12,966 bases of DNA. Origin: a virus. Positions 504 to 12,966 of the stretch are shown here, in pieces (the stretch's first letter is position 1; every line of letters begins with the position of its first letter). The stretch is taken from UHGV virus genome UHGV-0144896; one strand, 5' to 3'. The notes beneath the pieces were generated by a model. That model made no database searches. It had not been told where the DNA came from and saw only the letters and a list, made by a program, of their open reading frames with translations. Made by a program: the position numbers and the translations under genes.

Positions 504-676
504 TTCCTCGCACGATGTCTTAGCCACCGGATATCCCACAGGTGAGCCGTGTAGTTGAAGGTTTTTACGTCAGATTCTTTTGGGATTGGCTTGCGTTTAT
601 TTCTGGAGCGTTTCGTTGGAAGGTATTTGCAGTTTTCGCAGATGATGTCGGTGATACTTCGTCGCTGTCGTCTCAT
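500..676 (-). CDS. ninE: NinE-like small basic protein (58 aa)
   Basis: Not in the ORF track (<60 aa). ATG at 676..674 overlaps the NinC stop as ATGA. Translation is [58 protein letters not shown], ending at TGA 502..500. Matches my recollection of lambda NinE. Confidence 0.55.
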
Positions 677-1518
677 GCAGCATCCTCAAAATTAAATCCA
701 AGCTGACATGAAAATGCTTCACATGATTCAGAACACGAACCTGAATCATACTGTCGCATTGATGTCATTCTTGAGGCTAACTCATCTCTTGATATATCAC
801 TAAACAAGGCAATCAGTGATTTAAGTGTATTATTCCCTCGATACATAACCGGTTCCTTTCCTGTTTTTATTTCTGTATCAAGGATGTTGATAAATGCATC
901 TGCAAGTTCTGGCTCATCCATGGCTGCCAGCGCCACCTTTTGCATACTTTTTTTTATGCAGAAAACACAATTACCAAGATGCTCCTGTATGCCAAGATCA
1001 AACTTCTGCTCACTCCACCAATCAAGCACATCCTGTTTTTCAAAATCGCTTATATCAGCCAGGTACCGAAAACCATTAGCCCTTTTAAGCCTGTTTGGTT
1101 CATCTGTGCGAATGCCAAGCCATGTGATGAAATTTCCTTTCCCAAACTTTTCCTGACAATATTTGGTGAATGGAACAGACTTCATTCTGTCGGTACAGAA
1201 CGCACCGCCGATATATGGATGTCCGTATTTATTCAACATCCTTTTCCACGGTATAAGATCTGGACCAATATCATTGACACCTATCTCTTCATAACTACTG
1301 GCCTTCCCCATTTCTGGATTAGGTATTACACGAAGGCAATGTAAGTCTATTTTCCAGTTACTGACGATATTTCGGATGAACTCATATGTTTTAGGGTGCT
1401 CTGCCCCTGTATCCATGAAAACGTAATGCACGTCTTCACCTGCCTGTCGCTTTTGCTCCATTAGCCAGAGCAAATATGCTGACGTCCTGCCACCGGAGAA
1501 ACTAACGACATTTATCAT
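673..1518 (-). CDS. ninC: NinC-like protein, PAPS reductase / adenine-nucleotide alpha-hydrolase family
   Basis: Track ORF 673..1578, trimmed to the ATG at 1518..1516, which overlaps the NinB stop as ATGA. N-terminus [17 protein letters not shown] carries a PP-loop SGGxxS motif typical of the PAPS reductase family. Size (281 aa) and position after ninB match lambda NinC (orf290). Confidence 0.7.
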
Positions 1519-1955
1519 GCAGCCCTGTCTCCCCATCTCGCTTTCCACTCCAGAGCCAGTCGCGCTTCGTCTGACCACTTAACGCCACGTTCTGTACCGA
1601 ATGCCTGTATAAGCTCTAATAGCTCCGCAAATTCGCTTACACGCATCCTGCTGGTTGACTGGCCTATTACCACAAAGCCATTCCCGGCAAGGTTAGGAAC
1701 AACGTCCTGCTGCTTTAATGCTGCGGTAAACACACACTTCCAGCTTTCTGCATCCAGCCAGCGACCATGCCATTCAACCTGACGAGAGACGTCACCAAGG
1801 CAAGCCCAAAGCTTCCGATTCTGGTCTAAGCTGCGGTTGCGCTCCTGAATGATCACTACGATTGGCTTGGTTGGGTCTGGAAGAATTTGCTGTACCGCGT
1901 GAATAGCGTTTTGCTGATGTGCTGGAGATCGAATTTCAAAGGTTAGTTTTTTCAT
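1515..1955 (-). CDS. ninB: NinB recombination protein (Orf-family recombination mediator)
   Basis: Track ORF 1515..1973 begins at a TTG; the first ATG is at 1955..1953 and is preceded by a strong SD (GGGAGAGGGAAG). This gives 146 aa starting MKKLTFEIRSPAHQQNAIHAVQQILPDPTKP, which matches lambda NinB (orf146) closely from memory. Confidence 0.85.
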   Translation of the reverse strand: MKKLTFEIRSPAHQQNAIHAVQQILPDPTKPIVVIIQERNRSLDQNRKLWACLGDVSRQVEWHGRWLDAESWKCVFTAALKQQDVVPNLAGNGFVVIGQSTSRMRVSEFAELLELIQAFGTERGVKWSDEARLALEWKARWGDRAA

Positions 1956-3405: not shown

Positions 3406-4349
3406 GCAATCCCCCTGTCTGCAAACTTCCCTTCCCGTACTCCCGTTAACGAATCTTCCCTCAGCAGGTAATCAAAATCTGCCGTCCAGCCAGTGTCGTT
3501 GTCTCCGAAGTAAAACGGCTTGGCCTGATGTACAAACGCCCTGACATACGCTCTGAAACCGTCCACGTTTGGCGTTTTCAGTTGCGGGATGATTTTCTTC
3601 AGGCGGCGTTTGCGTTTCTCGTTGACCGCAACAGCGTGTGGCAGTCTGTCACCGACTTCGGTGTTGTAGGCGTTAAGGAAGGATTCGTAGTCGATGCGTT
3701 CTGCCTTGCGACGTTCAGGCTTAACCTGCCCATCGCCGCCCCCATTGGGGGGTAGGGGGGTATTATTTATATTCTTGTTAATACCTTCTTGTTCATGATG
3801 TGCGGTTGTTTGTGCGACATCATGTGCGGTTGTTTGTGCGGCATGTACTCTGAAAGCCGCGCCATTACTGGCTTCGTCATGTGCGGCATCATGTGCGGTT
3901 GTTTGTGCGGCTTCATGTGCGGGTGAATCGTCCATTTTTTGAGCATATTCATGGTAATTTGTGATGGTAATCACACGACCTTTTTGCTTCTCTCCATCAA
4001 TGGTGATCATCCCCTCTTTCACAAAAACCTGAAGCATCCGCTCAACCTGATCGCGGCTTGCTGGCTTGCCATGCCTGTCGCATAACTGAAGACCTAAATC
4101 AGCTGCTGTCACAACCAGTTGACCGGGTTGCAGATGCCATTCATGACCTTTGAAATTCGCTTTGTATGGCTTTCTGGCGGCATTCAGGAGAAGGTTTTCC
4201 CACAGGGTGCGAAGATAAACATCTTTCGCCCATGACTGTTTCAGAATGCTCCGGTACAACGGAATGTAACCAGTTTTCTGGTTCTCCATCCTGTTGCTCC
4301 TGCGCTCGTGTGCGGCGCTGAAATCGTAGATTTTTGCTGTGTTGCTCAT
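3402..4349 (-). CDS. Replication initiator protein, lambda O-like / P22 gene 18-like
   Basis: 315-aa ORF starting [10 protein letters not shown], similar to the lambda O N-terminus. The central region has repeated peptide segments ([27 protein letters not shown]) encoded by DNA iterons. Position is between cII and the helicase. Confidence 0.75.
3760..3925. repeat. Putative origin of replication: iteron array plus adjacent AT-rich tract inside the O-like gene
   Basis: At least four direct copies of a ~19-20 bp unit (catgtgcggttgtttgtgcg and variants; TGTGCGG core) lie between ~3795 and 3925. An AT-rich stretch (tattatttatattcttgttaatacc) and a G-tract lie at 3735..3795. Same architecture as lambda ori within O. 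Confidence 0.6.
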
Positions 4350-6179: not shown

Positions 6180-6289
6180 CCAGAACTTGAGTGGTTTTGG
6201 GGATGGCGCGAATTGCAGCTGCAAGACAGCGATCGAGAAGATAAGCACCTCGACGCGTCATGCGCCAAAGCCACTTAAAGGAGACCATC

Positions 6290-6595
6290 ATGGTAACCAT
6301 TGTCTGGAAAGAATCCAAAGGTACGGCAAAAAGCCGCTACAAAGCTCGCAGAGCAGAACTTATTGCCGAGCGACGCAGTAATGAAGCACTGGCGCGAAAA
6401 ATTGCGCTAAAGCTCTCTGGTTGCGTCAGAGCAGACAAAGCAGCATCACTAGGAAGCCTTTGCTGCAAGAAGAAAGAAGAAGTCGTTCGAAAAAATAGAA
6501 GTATTTATTACAAGGATTCAAACCCATTAGGAAACAAAATACATGCAGTCCAAAAAATAAAATTGTACAGTAAACCACCGTACGGTGCTTATTGA
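6290..6595 (+). CDS. N: Antitermination protein N (phi21-type arginine-rich motif)
   Basis: Track ORF 6260..6595, trimmed to ATG 6290 with an AAAGGAG SD 6 nt upstream. The N-terminal arginine-rich motif GTAKSRYKARRAELIAERR matches the phi21 N boxB-binding peptide as I recall it. ~101 aa, first gene after PL/nutL. Confidence 0.75.
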   Translation: MVTIVWKESKGTAKSRYKARRAELIAERRSNEALARKIALKLSGCVRADKAASLGSLCCKKKEEVVRKNRSIYYKDSNPLGNKIHAVQKIKLYSKPPYGAY

Positions 6596-6958: not shown

Positions 6959-7072
6959 TGTCTGAACTAACCGAATTTACTACAGCAAACCACGCAGTGA
7001 AATGGGCGTGACTTGTGTTGGTCGCCAGAAAATGAAATTAGGCAGCAAACCACTTATTTGAGAGGAATTAAT

Positions 7073-7696
7073 ATGTCATCAATCCGCTTAACAACGAGTA
7101 TGAAAGAGAAAATCGCTCGTAACGCTTTAATTAAATCTGGGGTTTTCACTGAGCTTGAAGAAGTAACAAAGTTAAAGAACCAGCTTGCACTTGACGCCAG
7201 AGTTGTTGTGTTTGGCGGTAAAAAGAAAACTGAGGAAGTGGATCAGTTATCATCCAAGTTAATGGCTATAAGCGAAGAACTTGAAAAGCTGGGATGTTCA
7301 TTTTACTCATGCGATGCCCGTTCAACTTCAATTTATCTGACTGTATCTGGCAGAAGGGTTGGCTGGTATTCATATGGGAAAGACGGCAACGGCGAAGATA
7401 TATTGCTCCCTACTCCGACCAAAGATAAATGCATGTTTAGCGCAGAACACGAAATAACAAAAAGGTTTGATGAAATCTGCGCATTGCAACAAAAACTTGA
7501 AGCCAAGAAAAAGGATATCGAATCAAATGTATGGGCTGCTTTGAACTCAGTCACAACAGTTAAGCGACTTATTGAAGTTTGGCCTGAAAGCAAAGAGTTG
7601 CTACCAAAAGAAGCAGATAAAGCAAGTACAGCACTTCCTGCTTTACGGGTAGAAGATTTGAATAAGATGATTGGACTTCCTTCCGAGGTCGCATAA
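7073..7696 (+). CDS. Hypothetical protein (207 aa), AT-rich accessory gene in the PL operon
   Basis: Track ORF 7013..7696, trimmed to ATG 7073 with a GAGG SD 7 nt upstream. Hydrophilic, lysine/glutamate-rich, with no obvious transmembrane segment, so it is unlikely to be SieB. Bracketed by terminators at 6937..6958 and 7831..7856. No family recognised. Confidence 0.5.
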   Translation: MSSIRLTTSMKEKIARNALIKSGVFTELEEVTKLKNQLALDARVVVFGGKKKTEEVDQLSSKLMAISEELEKLGCSFYSCDARSTSIYLTVSGRRVGWYSYGKDGNGEDILLPTPTKDKCMFSAEHEITKRFDEICALQQKLEAKKKDIESNVWAALNSVTTVKRLIEVWPESKELLPKEADKASTALPALRVEDLNKMIGLPSEVA

Positions 7697-8448: not shown

Positions 8449-9054
8449 ATGAGCAAAGAATTTTACGCAAGACTGGCAGCTATTCAGGAGAACTTGAACG
8501 CGCCAAAGAATCAGTACAACTCATTCGGTAAATATAAATACAGAAGCTGCGAAGACATTCTTGAAGGAGTTAAGCCGTTACTGAATGGCCTGTTTTTATC
8601 AATCAGCGATGAAGTTGTGTTGATTGGTGATCGGTATTACGTGAAAGCAACGGCAACTATTACCGATGGCGAAAACAGTCATACGGCAACCGCACTAGCA
8701 CGAGAGGAAGAAAGCAAGAAAGGAATGGATTCTGCACAAGTTACGGGAGCTACAAGCTCTTATGCACGCAAGTATTGCCTCAATGGTTTGTTCGGCATTG
8801 ATGATGCGAAAGATGCAGATACAGACGAGCATAAACATCAGCAGAACGCAGCAGCAAAGCAATCAAAACCATCACCTACATCTGAACAGGTTCTAAAAGC
8901 ATTCACTGACGCAGCAATGCAGAAAAACACCGTAGAAGAGCTTAAACAGGCGTTCGCCAAAGCGTGGAAGATGCTCGAAGGCACACCGGAGCAGCACAAA
9001 GCGCAGGACGTTTACAACATCAGACGAGGCGAATTAGAAGGAGCGGCAGCTTAA
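8449..9054 (+). CDS. erf: Erf-family single-strand annealing recombinase (P22 Erf-like)
   Basis: Track ORF 8419..9054 begins at a TTG; the first ATG at 8449 gives MSKEFYARLAAIQENLNAPKNQYNSFGKYKYRSCEDILEGVKPLL, close to P22 Erf from memory (~201 aa). The alternative start at 8419 cannot be excluded. Confidence 0.8.
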   Translation: MSKEFYARLAAIQENLNAPKNQYNSFGKYKYRSCEDILEGVKPLLNGLFLSISDEVVLIGDRYYVKATATITDGENSHTATALAREEESKKGMDSAQVTGATSSYARKYCLNGLFGIDDAKDADTDEHKHQQNAAAKQSKPSPTSEQVLKAFTDAAMQKNTVEELKQAFAKAWKMLEGTPEQHKAQDVYNIRRGELEGAAA

Positions 9055-10889: not shown

Positions 10890-11527
10890 CCACTATTACC
10901 AAAGAGCGACTGCTGACAATCAAGCAGTGGCGCGAAACATACGGACCTGGTAGCAACGTTGTACTGCCAGCAGAAGAAGCGGAAGAACTGGCACGAATTG
11001 CTCTGGCATCGCTGGAACGCGAACAGATTCGCCACGAGCATGCCAAATGGTCTGACTCCACATTTGGCTGCGTTGGCCCCATTGGTCCACTGAAACACCT
11101 CTCAAAAGAGGCTCTGGAAGCCGCAGCCGAACCTGACGATCTCAGCGAGTGGGCTGATATGCAGTTCCTGTTGTGGGATGCACAGCGCCGTGCTGGCATC
11201 AGCGATGCTGAAATTACCGCTGCTATGGAAGATAAATTGAAGATCAACATGGAGCGCCAGTGGCCTGAGCCAAAAGATGGTGAGCCTCGCTTGCACATTA
11301 AAGAACCCGGCAACTCTCCGGGAACTCCGGATAGTTGGATAAGCTGTAGTGAGCGAATGCCGGAAGAAACGGGTGACATTATTGTTGTTTCGGATGGCAT
11401 TGTAATGTCAGGGATTTCTTATTCTCGTCGTGACGGGTTCTATATGGCCGCATTGGAGTACGACGACGACGAACCAATTGACGGTGTAACCCACTGGATG
11501 CCGCTGCCAGAACCGCCGCAGGGGTGA
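10886..11527 (+). CDS. Two-domain phage protein (DUF550-like N-terminus, DUF551-like C-terminus)
   Basis: 213 aa. ATG 10886 overlaps the upstream stop as ATGA. The C-terminal segment SCSERMPEE..GDIIVV...THWMPLPEPP resembles the DUF551 pattern common in enterobacterial prophages. Domain names are from memory. Confidence 0.55.
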   Translation: MTTITKERLLTIKQWRETYGPGSNVVLPAEEAEELARIALASLEREQIRHEHAKWSDSTFGCVGPIGPLKHLSKEALEAAAEPDDLSEWADMQFLLWDAQRRAGISDAEITAAMEDKLKINMERQWPEPKDGEPRLHIKEPGNSPGTPDSWISCSERMPEETGDIIVVSDGIVMSGISYSRRDGFYMAALEYDDDEPIDGVTHWMPLPEPPQG

Positions 11528-11593
11528 AATGATGCTTGGCCTGAAGTATTTTATGTAATTGGTATTGCTATATTTTTATCTGGGGATAAACGA

Positions 11594-11836
11594 ATGTTCT
11601 CTCTGATTCAACGTGGTCAGATATACACCGATAGCGCTGGCTATCCAGTAAAAATCATTCGTAGTACTGATCACTCAGTATTCTTCAAGAGGATGGATGG
11701 CTATCCTGGAAGAGTGTGCATCAGAAAATTCAATAATTTATTCGAACACATTGATCACAGAGAATATCACCAGATCCTGGCTGAAACAGAGCAGGAGAAC
11801 CATCTGAAAAAATTACGTGCCATGCAAAGGAGATAA
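11594..11836 (+). CDS. Small hypothetical protein (80 aa)
   Basis: Track ORF. Preceded by a TGGGGATAA motif that recurs upstream of the next gene. No family recognised with certainty. Confidence 0.45.
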   Translation: MFSLIQRGQIYTDSAGYPVKIIRSTDHSVFFKRMDGYPGRVCIRKFNNLFEHIDHREYHQILAETEQENHLKKLRAMQRR

Positions 11837-11924
11837 ACCGGTAAAGGTGTTCGCGATAAAGGTGAATATCGGCAATGAATAACAATCCTCGAACTCGCGG
11901 GGATTTCTTTTATATGGGGATAAT

Positions 11925-12725
11925 ATGACCATCCACTTTCACGGCAGCCCAATATGGGGGGATGAGCATGCCCCTACAGATATGCTGATTAAAGCCCTTT
12001 ACCGTGATGGTGGGGCTTTTGTTTCATTTGCCAGACCAGAGCAGATGAAAAAGATTGCCATGTTCCCTTGTGATATACGCCTTGATAACGGCGCTTTTAG
12101 CGACTGGATGAAAGCATTAAAGAAAGGCACTCCGGTAGACTGGAGTAAGAGACGAGCAAAATTCTACGACTTTGTTGGGAAGTGGTTCAGCAGAATTGAA
12201 TGGTTTCTTATACCTGACGTTATCGAAGGGACAGAGGCAGAAAACGACGAGCAGATTGAGTTGGTTCCTGATTGGCTAAAATCAAAAGCGGTTCCGGTCT
12301 GGCATACCGACGAATCAATTGAACGTCTTTTACGCCTTTCTAGCAAATTTGAATGGGTGGCGATTGGATGCTGCGGACCACACAGGCACATACGCTCTAA
12401 ATGGTGGGAACAGAGAATGGATGAAGTTTTCACTGAGCTTTATATCAATCGTAATTTGAAAGTGAAAATTCATGGTCTTCGAATGCTCGACGTGAGAGTT
12501 CTTGGTATGTATCCGTTCGCCAGTGCGGATTCTACTAATGTTGCTGTTAACGTACCGAAGACAGAGAAGCGATTTCCTGAGATTACCGACAAACTGGCAC
12601 GCACAGCTGTACTTCGCGCTGCTATTGAAAAGGTGCACCCGCCATCGATATCAGCATGGGTAGACAGAAAGATGAGAGAGCCGGCGCAAGCCGGTTTTTT
12701 ATTTGAATTCACCGACGCCGCTTAA
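11925..12725 (+). CDS. Hypothetical protein (266 aa); tentative TGT-fold (DpdA-like DNA-guanine transglycosylase) candidate
   Basis: Track ORF with a GGGGA SD-like sequence upstream. Several short motifs occur in the same order as catalytic motifs of bacterial tRNA-guanine transglycosylase: RDGGAFVSF / LDNGAFS (cf. TDSGGFQVF), AIGCCG (cf. AVGGLAVG), KIHGL (cf. YLMGVG) and FASADSTN (cf. MFDCVMPTRN). There is no C-terminal zinc domain. The product assignment is speculative. Confidence 0.6.
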   Translation: MTIHFHGSPIWGDEHAPTDMLIKALYRDGGAFVSFARPEQMKKIAMFPCDIRLDNGAFSDWMKALKKGTPVDWSKRRAKFYDFVGKWFSRIEWFLIPDVIEGTEAENDEQIELVPDWLKSKAVPVWHTDESIERLLRLSSKFEWVAIGCCGPHRHIRSKWWEQRMDEVFTELYINRNLKVKIHGLRMLDVRVLGMYPFASADSTNVAVNVPKTEKRFPEITDKLARTAVLRAAIEKVHPPSISAWVDRKMREPAQAGFLFEFTDAA

Positions 12726-12746
12726 TGCGGATTTCTTTTATCTGAA

Positions 12747-12770
12747 CTCGCTACGGCGAGTTTTGTTTTA
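12747..12770 (+). terminator. Intrinsic terminator after the 266-aa gene
   Basis: ctcgc-tacg-gcgag stem-loop followed by TTTTGTTTTA. Confidence 0.5.
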
Positions 12771-12782
12771 TGGAGATGATAA

Positions 12783-12950
12783 ATGCACTTCCGAGTCACA
12801 GGAGAATGGAATGGAGAACCATTCAACAGAGTTATCGAAGCAGAGGACATCAACGACTGCTATGACCACTGGATGATATGGGCACAGATAGCACATGCAG
12901 ACGTAACCAATATTCGAATTGAAGAACTGAAAGAACACCAAGCCGCCTGA
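12783..12950 (+). CDS. Small hypothetical protein (55 aa)
   Basis: Not in the ORF track. ATG 12783 (upstream GGAG, short spacing). Product MHFRVTGEWNGEPFNRVIEAEDINDCYDHWMIWAQIAHADVTNIRIEELKEHQAA. Its stop is embedded in a terminator hairpin. Confidence 0.45.
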   Translation: MHFRVTGEWNGEPFNRVIEAEDINDCYDHWMIWAQIAHADVTNIRIEELKEHQAA

Positions 12951-12966
12951 TGGCGGTTTTTTATTG
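12942..12966 (+). terminator. Intrinsic terminator at the window edge
   Basis: gccgcc-tgat-ggcggt stem-loop followed by TTTTTTATTG, overlapping the stop codon at 12948..12950. Confidence 0.55.

What the first reader, a model, noticed from the sequence alone, without database searches (positions are those of the whole stretch)
11897..12770. 266-aa protein with TGT-like motif order, flanked by a 13-bp direct repeat: candidate DNA 7-deazaguanine modification enzyme
The 266-aa ORF (11925..12725) has several short motifs in the same order as the catalytic motifs of tRNA-guanine transglycosylases (D-x-G-x-F twice near the N-terminus, AIGCCG, KIHGL, FASADSTN) but lacks a zinc-binding C-terminal domain. 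That is the architecture described for phage/prophage DpdA-type DNA-guanine transglycosylases, which insert preQ0-type bases into DNA as anti-restriction modifications. The 13-mer GGATTTCTTTTAT occurs exactly twice in the window, just upstream (11901..11913) and just downstream (12729..12741) of the gene, each close to a GAACTCGC 8-mer. That is consistent with a gene cassette exchanged by recombination at linker sequences. No queC/D/E or folE genes are present, so any activity would depend on host preQ0 synthesis.
Basis: partly seen in the sequence, partly recalled or inferred. Interest (0 to 1): 0.7.

Follow-up and report, generated by a model that had tools for sequence, protein, structure and literature searches.

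The report
Known phage DpdA gene, inserted cassette

Summary
The window is the early region of a lambdoid E. coli prophage.

**The protein**
- It is 98.5% identical to HK106 gp29, which Hutinet et al. 2019 already list as a phage DpdA in their "DpdA only" group.
- It is 58% identical to the DpdA of Salmonella phage 7-11. That phage's DNA carries only trace dADG, about 0.02% of G.
- Pfam, NCBIfam, PADLOC and PDB sequence searches find nothing. PHROG 887 matches at 1e-102.
- A profile comparison with the verified CAjan DpdA family gives 95.9% probability.
- Close relatives sit directly after a YhhQ/Vut transporter gene, and one is fused to a Dam DNA methylase.

**The repeat**
- A repeated 13-mer on its own is expected by chance in this window.
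- HK022 and lambda carry the empty site with a single copy, so the gene is an 828-bp indel bracketed by the repeat.
- Copy 1 is the 3' arm and T-tract of the HK022-annotated tL4 terminator.
- The GAACTCGC 8-mer match is coincidental.

**Verdict:** already known, modest interest. The enzyme's activity has never been measured.

The parts
11884..11913 (+). tL4-type intrinsic terminator. Hairpin AATCCTCG-AACTCG-CGGGGATT (11884..11905) followed by the T-tract TCTTTTAT. It closes the upstream DUF4222 gene and forms the left border of the insertion.
   Evidence: Terminator scan. RNA fold -10.6 kcal/mol, z = -3.25. The same element is annotated 'tL4 terminator' in HK022 record X51962 and is conserved in HK106, HK022 and lambda.
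11901..11913 (+). Direct repeat copy 1, GGATTTCTTTTAT. It is the 3' stem arm plus T-tract of tL4.
11914..12741 (+). 828-bp segment present here and in HK106 but absent from HK022 and lambda. It could equally be written 11901..12728. It holds a Shine-Dalgarno-like GGGGA (11916..11920), dpdA, a short 3' tail and repeat copy 2.
   Evidence: Megablast splits the query at exactly 12729 and joins the flanks in HK022, HF4s, APC_JM3.2 and Stx1a phages. Sequence alignments.
11925..12725 (+). dpdA, 266 aa. A singleton phage-type 7-deazaguanine DNA transglycosylase homologue. Predicted active-site residues are D54 (in D-N-G-A-F), D98, H183 and D202.
12675..12706 (+). Terminator-like hairpin GCCGGC-GCAA-GCCGG plus T6ATTT, inside the last 50 nt of the ORF. 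It encodes the poorly conserved, low-confidence tail REPAQAGFLFEF.
   Evidence: Terminator scan. The hairpin is conserved with a different loop in the 81%-identical homologue L011. The tail is found only in the closest relatives. pLDDT is below 50 at residues 257-262.
12729..12741 (+). Direct repeat copy 2, GGATTTCTTTTAT. Homology to HK022 and lambda resumes at its first base. In HK106 it matches 12 of 13 (GGGTTTCTTTTAT).
12744..12771 (+). Second hairpin GAACTCGC-TACG-GCGAGTTT plus TGTTTTAT, ahead of the orf55-like gene. It is conserved in HK022, lambda and HK106 and contains the downstream GAACTCGC 8-mer.
12783..12950 (+). 55-aa lambda orf55/lambdap35-like gene (phrog_676). This is the conserved right-hand neighbour, followed by xis and int in related phages.

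Best explanation
The ORF encodes a phage DpdA, a TIM-barrel transglycosylase of the TGT superfamily without the zinc subdomain.

**Proposed chemistry (inferred from the family).** After replication it swaps guanine in double-stranded phage DNA for a 7-deazaguanine base. That base is preQ0 made by the host FolE/QueD/QueE/QueC pathway, possibly appearing as ADG. By analogy with bDpdA and TGT, D202 would form a covalent ribosyl-enzyme intermediate, D54 in the D-N-G-A-F loop would act as general acid/base, and D98 and H183 would read the base.

**Expression (inferred).** The gene has no promoter of its own. It lies at the far end of the leftward early (pL) operon, behind the tL4 terminator. It should therefore be made only when N-antiterminated transcription runs through, during lytic growth or induction.

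**Expected benefit (inferred).** Protection of progeny DNA from host restriction.

**Origin (shown for the structure, inferred for the mechanism).** The gene arrived or is lost as an 828-bp cassette whose ends share 13 bp with the tL4 T-tract. This is the kind of short-homology junction that builds lambdoid mosaics.

**Shown versus inferred.** Shown: homology, fold, conserved motifs, indel structure and genomic context. Inferred: activity, substrate, expression route and anti-restriction role.
For: **Family**
- phrog_887, E = 1.3e-102.
- 98.5% identical to HK106 gp29, which is listed as DpdA in the 'DpdA only' group of PMC6884629.
- 58% identical to the phage 7-11 DpdA. That phage's DNA contains dADG at 50 per 10^6 nt.
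- hhalign to the verified CAjan DpdA: 95.0% against the single sequence and 95.9% against its family profile, with catalytic motifs aligned.

**Fold**
- pLDDT 91.5, eight beta-alpha units.
- The 28 significant BFVD hits (E <= 0.001) are unnamed phage proteins or proteins named 'queuine tRNA-ribosyltransferase'; none carries any other functional name.

**Substrate and target hints**
- The 81%-identical P0004 and the 76%-identical P0006 have a Pfam Vut_1 gene overlapping their start. YhhQ, a member of this family, is the E. coli preQ0 transporter (PMC6884629).
- In PEAT2 (64% identical) the overlapping upstream gene passes the Vut_1 cut-off.
- In Phleasolo (40% identical) the overlapping upstream gene is annotated 'putative VUT family protein' but matches Vut_1 only weakly: E = 0.07, 13.9 bits against a cut-off of 27.2.
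- P0006 is fused to a Dam DNA methyltransferase domain, E = 4e-58, which argues that DNA is the target.
- Phage 9g DpdA expressed alone in E. coli inserts dPreQ0 from the host pool.

**Expression**
- No sigma-70-like promoter in 11400..12966.
- The gene lies downstream of the N-like, cIII, kil and erf genes on the same strand.

**Cassette:**
Against: - No member of this gamma-proteobacterial singleton clade has been assayed as an enzyme.
- The only relative whose DNA was analysed (7-11) had just ~0.02% of G replaced, by dADG rather than dPreQ0. Another singleton phage, Orion, had none.
- Hutinet et al. note that singleton DpdAs cluster apart and may have diverged functionally.
- No hit to Pfam PF01702, NCBIfam, PADLOC or PDB sequences. 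hhalign to E. coli TGT is null.
- The middle Asp (D98) is offset by two columns in the hhalign alignment to DpdA1.
- The TGT/bDpdA zinc site is absent.
Confidence: 0.72

Rival explanations
1. The protein is a true DpdA/TGT-superfamily homologue but has diverged in function. It might modify only very rare specific sites, use another base, or act on a non-DNA target such as tRNA. It might also act on a protein N-terminus, as Cap10 does in type IV CBASS. In any of these cases it would not be a bulk anti-restriction modifier.
For: - Singleton DpdAs form their own similarity clusters, and the authors raise functional divergence.
- Phage 7-11 carries only trace dADG.
- The zinc subdomain is lacking.
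Against: - No Cap9/QueC-like or CD-NTase partner is nearby.
- A close relative is fused to a DNA methyltransferase, and relatives show operon coupling with Vut transporters.
- The catalytic motifs align with a verified DNA-modifying DpdA.
- NinC and Nmad5, the other candidate partners in the window, are absent from another prophage that carries the same cassette. NinC is present in lambda, which has no dpdA.
Confidence: 0.18
2. The motif matches are spurious and the protein is an unrelated TIM-barrel enzyme or a non-functional remnant.
For: - No Pfam, NCBIfam or PDB sequence match.
- The Foldseek PDB top hits are generic barrels.
- hhalign to E. coli TGT is null.
Against: - hhalign to the DpdA1 family gives 95.9% over 150 columns, with four motifs in register.
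- The verified CAjan DpdA also has no Pfam hit, so the Pfam negative carries no information.
- The family has 2229 homologues and 35 invariant columns in a 41-sequence sample, so it is under selection.
- The intact ORF is conserved at 99% or more in 79 complete E. coli genomes.
Confidence: 0.03
3. The 13-bp repeat is a chance match or a generic element with no relation to how the gene got there.
For: - Repeated 13-mers are expected by chance in this window.
- The 13-mer is part of tL4, which occurs in many lambdoid phages without dpdA.
- No significant similarity extends upstream of the repeat.
Against: - The two copies coincide to the base with the breakpoints of the indel relative to HK022 and lambda.
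- HK106 keeps both copies, 13/13 and 12/13.
Confidence: 0.1

Closest known systems
Singleton ('DpdA only') phage DpdA of gamma-proteobacterial phages: HK106 gp29 YP_007151699, Salmonella phage 7-11 gp032, PEAT2, BTP1, SPN3UB (Hutinet et al. 2019, PMC6884629)
   Same: - 98.5% identical to HK106 gp29, with the same position next to orf55-xis-int.
- 58% identical to the 7-11 protein.
- No preQ0 synthesis genes in the phage.
- No Pfam TGT hit.
   Different: - Nothing substantive at the protein level.
- Here the upstream neighbour is a DUF4222 gene rather than HK106 gp30 or the ASCH gene seen in most E. coli prophages.
- Both repeat copies are exact here.
DpdA1 of Queuovirinae (Escherichia phage CAjan gp35, phage 9g DpdA). 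Experimentally shown to insert preQ0 into DNA.
   Same: Homologous by profile comparison (95.9%). Shared motifs are D-x-G-A-F-S, P-x-x-H, K-x-H-G and S-x-D-S. Neither has a Pfam hit.
   Different: - About 19% identity. This protein is 40 aa shorter at the C-terminus.
- CAjan and 9g encode FolE/QueD/QueE/QueC (plus YhhQ) beside dpdA and replace 25-32% of G.
- This phage has none of those genes, and the level of modification is unknown.
Bacterial DpdA of the Dpd restriction-modification island (S. Montevideo, PDB 7ui4, PMC10164549)
   Different: - bDpdA is 413 aa, with a large Ins8 insertion, a structural Zn site and an obligatory ParB-like ATPase partner, DpdB.
- None of these is present here.
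Cap10, the TGT-like protein of type IV CBASS (PDB 9ntn; bioRxiv 10.1101/2025.04.06.647259)
   Different: Cap10 works with Cap9 (QueC-like) and a CD-NTase whose N-terminus it binds. No such genes are in the window.
Lambdoid mosaic junction at the HK022 tL4 terminator
   Same: - A single gene is present or absent between conserved flanks.
- The junction lies in a terminator or intergenic element.
- The cassette carries a terminator-like hairpin at its own 3' end.
   Different: No promoter of its own was detected, so it is not a self-expressed cassette. It depends on pL read-through.

Membership tests
Phage DpdA (DpdA1-like / singleton clade) | Detectable homology to an experimentally verified phage DpdA | tested here: met
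   hhalign of A1 against CAjan DpdA gives 95.0%. Against its family profile it gives 95.9%, E = 5.5e-9, over 150 columns. phrog_887 matches at E = 1.3e-102.
Phage DpdA (DpdA1-like / singleton clade) | Orthologue already catalogued as DpdA | tested here: met
   HK106 YP_007151699 is 98.5% identical and is listed in Supplementary Data of PMC6884629.
TGT superfamily | (beta/alpha)8 barrel whose nearest solved structures are TGT/DpdA | tested here: met
TGT superfamily | Match to Pfam PF01702 (TGT) | tested here: not met
   No Pfam hit even at E <= 1. The verified CAjan DpdA fails as well, so this does not exclude DpdA.
TGT / DpdA | Invariant general acid/base Asp in a D-x-G-x-F loop, and an invariant nucleophile Asp | tested here: met
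   D54 (with invariant N55 and A57 and near-invariant G56 and F58) and D202-S203 are invariant in A1. They align with the invariant D63 and D206 of the DpdA1 family. The roles are taken from bDpdA D95 and D256 (PMC10164549).
TGT / DpdA | Third invariant Asp, which binds the base | tested here: inconclusive
   D98 is invariant in A1 but sits two columns from the invariant D105 of DpdA1 in the hhalign alignment. No residue-level structural superposition was available.
TGT / bacterial DpdA | Structural Zn2+ site (Cys/His cluster in the C-terminal insertion) | tested here: not met
   Only C49, C149 and C150, none invariant. The protein ends about 60 residues after the nucleophile Asp.
Bacterial Dpd system | Partner DpdB (ParB-like ATPase) and DpdC, in a dpd island | tested here: not met
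   Pfam scans of the window ORFs of roughly 50 aa or longer, including all the long ones, show only lambdoid early genes.
Phage 7-deazaguanine modification module | Linked preQ0 synthesis or uptake genes (folE, queD, queE, queC, yhhQ) | tested here: not met
   None in the window. Close relatives do carry an overlapping Vut_1/YhhQ-family gene.
Phage DpdA | 7-deazaguanine nucleoside present in phage DNA and dependent on the gene | not testable with these tools
   Needs LC-MS/MS. The only data for the clade are 50 dADG per 10^6 nt in phage 7-11.
Type IV CBASS Cap10 | Operon with Cap9 (QueC-like) and a CD-NTase | tested here: not met
   No such genes. NinC is a PAPS-reductase-type PP-loop protein that is also found in lambda.
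Self-expressed gene cassette (own promoter plus terminator) | Own promoter and terminator flanking an inserted gene | tested here: inconclusive
   Terminator-like hairpins at 12675..12700 and 12744..12763, but no promoter-like site in 11400..12966.

The most novel reading that the evidence does not exclude
The gamma-proteobacterial singleton DpdAs carried by lambdoid prophages may not be bulk anti-restriction modifiers. They might place a 7-deazaguanine, possibly ADG as in phage 7-11, at very few specific sites using host preQ0. Or they might act on a non-DNA substrate in the way Cap10 acts on a protein. Either would give a function not yet described for phage DpdA, such as marking particular sites or countering a specific defence.
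Probability: 0.15. Interest if true: 0.6.

Novelty: already known. Interest (0 to 1): 0.25.

Why it matters
About 1.5% of complete E. coli genomes (79 of 5,426) carry this cassette in a lambda-like prophage, and PGAP still calls the product 'hypothetical protein'.

If it is active, temperate coliphages could acquire 7-deazaguanine protection with a single 0.8-kb gene by using the host's queuosine precursor pool. That would bear on restriction barriers to lysogenic conversion, since related flanks occur in Stx phages.

The family and this orthologue were already catalogued in 2019. The value here is confirmation, a precise map of the insertion site, and a reminder that the activity of the 'DpdA only' clade has never been measured directly.

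Tried and rejected
**Sequence and profile searches**
- Pfam, NCBIfam and PADLOC scans of the protein found nothing.
- phmmer and a profile search against PDB sequences gave only noise.
- hhalign of the family profile against E. coli TGT gave 0.4% probability. The link to canonical TGT rests on fold and on the DpdA1 bridge, not on direct sequence similarity.

**Structure search**

**Possible partner genes in the window**
- I considered whether the PP-loop protein at 673..1578 (weak QueC similarity, E = 0.029) is a QueC-like partner. Rejected: it is NinC (lambda Nin290, 58% identical), present in lambda without dpdA and absent from another dpdA-carrying prophage.
- I considered whether Nmad5 (7013..7696) is a partner. 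It is also absent from that prophage and from the HK106 stretch examined.

**Repeat**
- I tested whether the repeat extends beyond 13 bp as a degenerate second tL4. There is no significant similarity upstream (82.75% of shuffles score at least as well).
- Downstream, the RBS regions are only marginally similar: ATGGGGATAATA against ATGGAGATGATA, p about 0.05.
- The GAACTCGC pair was rejected as part of the repeat. The upstream copy exists only because of a window-specific C-to-A change in the tL4 loop (HK106 and lambda have GCACTCGC, HK022 has GCATTCGC). The downstream copy is the 5' arm of a different hairpin.

Full report
**1. The observation**

The ORF listing gives one 266-aa ORF at 11925..12725 on the + strand. 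The five quoted motifs can be read directly in its translation. GGATTTCTTTTAT occurs exactly twice, at 11901..11913 and 12729..12741, with no further copy even at two mismatches. GAACTCGC is at 11891..11898 and 12744..12751.

A repeated exact 13-mer is not remarkable in a window of this size. First-order Markov randomisations of the window carry on average 2.1 repeated 13-mers, and 74% have at least one. The real window also holds unrelated repeats, namely a 15-mer at 7142/12426 and a 13-mer at 8847/9376. The meaning of the repeat therefore has to come from its position and from comparison with other phages.

**2. Setting**

Pfam scans identify the window as the early region of a lambdoid prophage.
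- On the minus strand: NinX, NinC (PAPS-reductase-like), NinB, a DnaB-type helicase, an O-type initiator with iterons, cII and a P22-type Cro.
- On the plus strand: a cI-type S24 repressor, an N-like protein, an Nmad5 protein, cIII, Kil, Erf, Abc2, DUF2737, Ead/Ea22, a dATP/dGTP pyrophosphohydrolase-DUF551 protein and DUF4222.
- After those come the ORF in question and a 55-aa lambda orf55 homologue.

In related phages xis and int follow directly. The gene therefore lies at the far end of the leftward early operon. No sigma-70-like promoter was found in 11400..12966.

**3. What the protein is**

Curated libraries are silent. There is no Pfam (including PF01702), NCBIfam or PADLOC hit, and no PDB sequence hit with either the single sequence or the family profile. 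This negative carries little information, because the experimentally verified DpdA of phage CAjan also has no Pfam hit.

The positive evidence is as follows.
- **PHROGs:** phrog_887, 'queuine tRNA-ribosyltransferase', matches at E = 1.3e-102.
- **tblastn against phage genomes:** 105 records match. HK106 is 98.5% identical, PEAT2 64%, and Salmonella phages SE131 and 7-11 about 58%.
- **Large protein collection:** 2229 homologues. A 41-sequence alignment has 35 invariant columns, among them D54, N55, A57, D98, H127, G148, G151, H183, D202 and S203.
- **Profile comparison:** the profile aligns to CAjan DpdA at 95.0% probability and to a 20-member CAjan-family profile at 95.9%, E = 5.5e-9, over 150 columns. 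LDNGAFS pairs with LDSGAFS, PVWH with PCFH, KIHGL with KVHGF and SADS with SCDS.
- **Structure:** the AlphaFold model is confident (pLDDT 91.5, pTM 0.88) and has eight beta-alpha units.
- **BFVD:** the 28 significant hits (E <= 0.001) are unnamed phage proteins or proteins named 'queuine tRNA-ribosyltransferase'; none carries any other functional name.

The second is the real one. The protein has only three non-conserved cysteines, so it lacks the zinc site that TGTs and bacterial DpdA share.

**4. It is already catalogued**

Hutinet et al. 2019 (PMC6884629) list Enterobacteria phage HK106 YP_007151699 as a DpdA. PEAT2, 7-11, SE131, SEN1, SPN3UB and BTP1 appear in the same list. All are in the group of 76 phages that 'encode DpdA but no G+ or preQ0 biosynthesis protein homologs'.

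The authors make several relevant points.
- Such phages could rely on host preQ0 or on uptake.
- Singleton DpdAs form separate clusters for Mycobacterium and gamma-Proteobacteria, and may have diverged.
- 7-11 DNA carries dADG at 50 per 10^6 nt, about 0.02% of G, whereas Orion carries none.
- 9g DpdA expressed alone in E. coli inserts dPreQ0 into plasmid DNA. This shows that a phage DpdA plus the host pool can suffice.

RefSeq annotates the HK106 gene as queuine tRNA-ribosyltransferase. PGAP calls the E. coli copies 'hypothetical protein'.

**5. Context in relatives**

The closest non-cassette relatives sit directly behind, and overlap, a Vut_1 (YhhQ-family) transporter gene.
- P0004 (81% identical) and P0006 (76%) both have a Pfam Vut_1 gene overlapping their start.
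- In PEAT2 the upstream gene passes the Vut_1 cut-off.
- In Phleasolo the upstream gene is annotated as a putative VUT protein but matches Vut_1 only weakly, at 13.9 bits against a cut-off of 27.2.
- CAjan's annotated preQ0 transporter also matches Vut_1, at E = 2.2e-5 and 25.3 bits, just under the 27.2-bit cut-off.

P0006 is a fusion of the DpdA-like domain to a Dam DNA adenine methyltransferase, E = 4e-58. It lies in the same early-left region of a P22-like prophage next to int.

Together these point to a 7-deazaguanine base as substrate and DNA as target. The cassette in this window has lost, or never had, the transporter.

**6. The repeat and the cassette**

Megablast of 11500..12966 against phage genomes splits at query position 1230, which is window position 12729 and the first base of repeat copy 2. 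In HK022, HF4s, APC_JM3.2 and several Stx1a phages the two flanks are contiguous.

Read side by side:
- **HK022 and lambda:** ...AATCCTCGCAYTCGCGGGGATTT(C/A)TTTTAT|CTGAACTCGCTACGGCGGGTTTTGTTTTATGGAGATGATAAATG..., with one copy of the 13-mer.
- **This window and HK106:** the same left flank through GGATTTCTTTTAT, then ATGGGGATAATATG-dpdA-...TAATGC, then GG(A/G)TTTCTTTTAT|CTGAACTCGC....

The gene is thus an 828-bp indel bracketed by the repeat.

The left copy is the 3' stem arm and T-tract of a hairpin annotated in HK022 (X51962) as the tL4 terminator. That hairpin folds well here too.

The upstream GAACTCGC exists only because this window has an A where HK106 and lambda have C in the tL4 loop. 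The downstream GAACTCGC is the 5' arm of a different, conserved hairpin. The 8-mer match is therefore coincidental.

Similarity does not extend upstream of the 13-mer. Downstream, the two ribosome-binding regions are marginally alike (p about 0.05).

Upstream neighbours vary: DUF4222 here, ASCH in most E. coli prophages, gp30 in HK106 and ea8.5 in lambda. The block tL4-(dpdA)-orf55-xis-int stays constant. That is what a mosaic boundary looks like.

Among 5,426 complete E. coli genomes, 79 have the cassette and 2,507 have at least the flanks. A short-homology recombination event at the tL4 T-tract, either insertion or deletion, is the simplest account. The direction cannot be told from these data.

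**7. How it most likely works**

After induction or infection, N-antiterminated pL transcription reads through tL4 into dpdA, which has an SD-like GGGGA at 11916..11920. The enzyme then exchanges G for host-made preQ0 in replicated phage DNA through a covalent Asp202-ribosyl intermediate, with D54 acting as acid/base. This follows the mechanism established for TGT and bDpdA. The modified DNA would resist restriction in the next host.

Homology, fold, motifs, cassette structure and context are shown. Activity, substrate, extent of modification, expression route and phenotype are inferred. The trace modification seen in 7-11 is the main reason for caution.

**8. Rivals**

- **A diverged function.** This could be rare-site marking, another base, or a non-DNA target as with Cap10. 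It cannot be excluded (about 0.18). The Dam fusion, the Vut coupling and the absence of Cap9 and CD-NTase argue against it.
- **A spurious motif match.** This is essentially excluded.
- **Partnership with NinC or Nmad5.** Rejected. NinC is in lambda, and both genes are missing from another prophage with the identical cassette.

**9. Verdict**

The gene is a known, catalogued member of the phage DpdA family, so novelty is low. The exact mapping of the insertion at tL4 is a small addition. The open question is an experimental one, namely what these singleton DpdAs actually do to DNA.

Noticed in passing
window 7013..7696 (+): A 227-aa protein matches Pfam Nmad5 ('nucleotide modification associated domain 5') at E = 1.8e-70. 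It sits between the N-like gene and cIII. Its biochemistry is unknown, and in Dhillonvirus a point mutation in nmad5 lets the phage escape Tmn defence (PMC11846954). It is not obligatorily linked to dpdA, because another dpdA-carrying prophage lacks it (L015).
   Followed up: partly
window 673..1578 (-): NinC (lambda Nin290 homologue, 58% identical). It is a PP-loop, PAPS-reductase-like protein with PADLOC similarity to SspD, BrxP and DndC, and only sub-threshold similarity to QueC. It occurs in 540 phage records including lambda. Its function is unknown and it is not specifically tied to dpdA.
   Followed up: partly
window 12675..12706 (+): A strong terminator-like hairpin (GCCGGC-GCAA-GCCGG plus a T-tract) lies inside the last 50 nt of dpdA. 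It encodes a C-terminal tail found only in the closest relatives and modelled at low confidence. The hairpin is conserved with a different loop in an 81%-identical homologue (L011 3755..3780). It could be an internal terminator or attenuator that the ORF has read through.
   Followed up: partly
L008 4540..6383 (also L009, L010): A 460-aa protein fuses a DpdA-like domain (76% identical to the window protein) to a Dam DNA adenine methyltransferase domain. It is preceded by an overlapping Vut_1 transporter gene, in a P22-like prophage next to int. This would be a two-modification enzyme that, as far as I know, has not been described.
   Followed up: partly
window 3798..3912 (-strand O-like gene): There are three copies of a 19-mer, ATGTGCGGTTGTTTGTGCG, at 3798, 3822 and 3891. 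The last two extend to about 25 nt. They lie inside the replication-initiator gene and are probably the origin iterons.
   Followed up: no
window 7142..7156 and 12426..12440 (+): An exact 15-mer, GTTTTCACTGAGCTT, is shared by the Nmad5 gene and dpdA. It is in frame in both and encodes VFTEL. It is probably chance (my own rough estimate is about 0.1 such repeats expected in a window this size), but it is the longest non-iteron repeat here.
   Followed up: no
window 6260..6595 (+): The N-like protein has no Pfam hit. It carries the arginine-rich stretch GTAKSRYKARRAELIAERR, which from my own memory resembles the phage 21 N boxB-binding peptide. This was not verified with the tools.
   Followed up: no
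window 11910..11927 versus 12762..12785: The T-tract plus ribosome-binding region ahead of dpdA (TTTCTTTTATATGGGGATAATATG) resembles the one ahead of the orf55-like gene (TTTGTTTTATGGAGATGATAAATG). The similarity is marginal (p about 0.05) but may hint at a shared 'terminator tail plus RBS' linker.
   Followed up: partly
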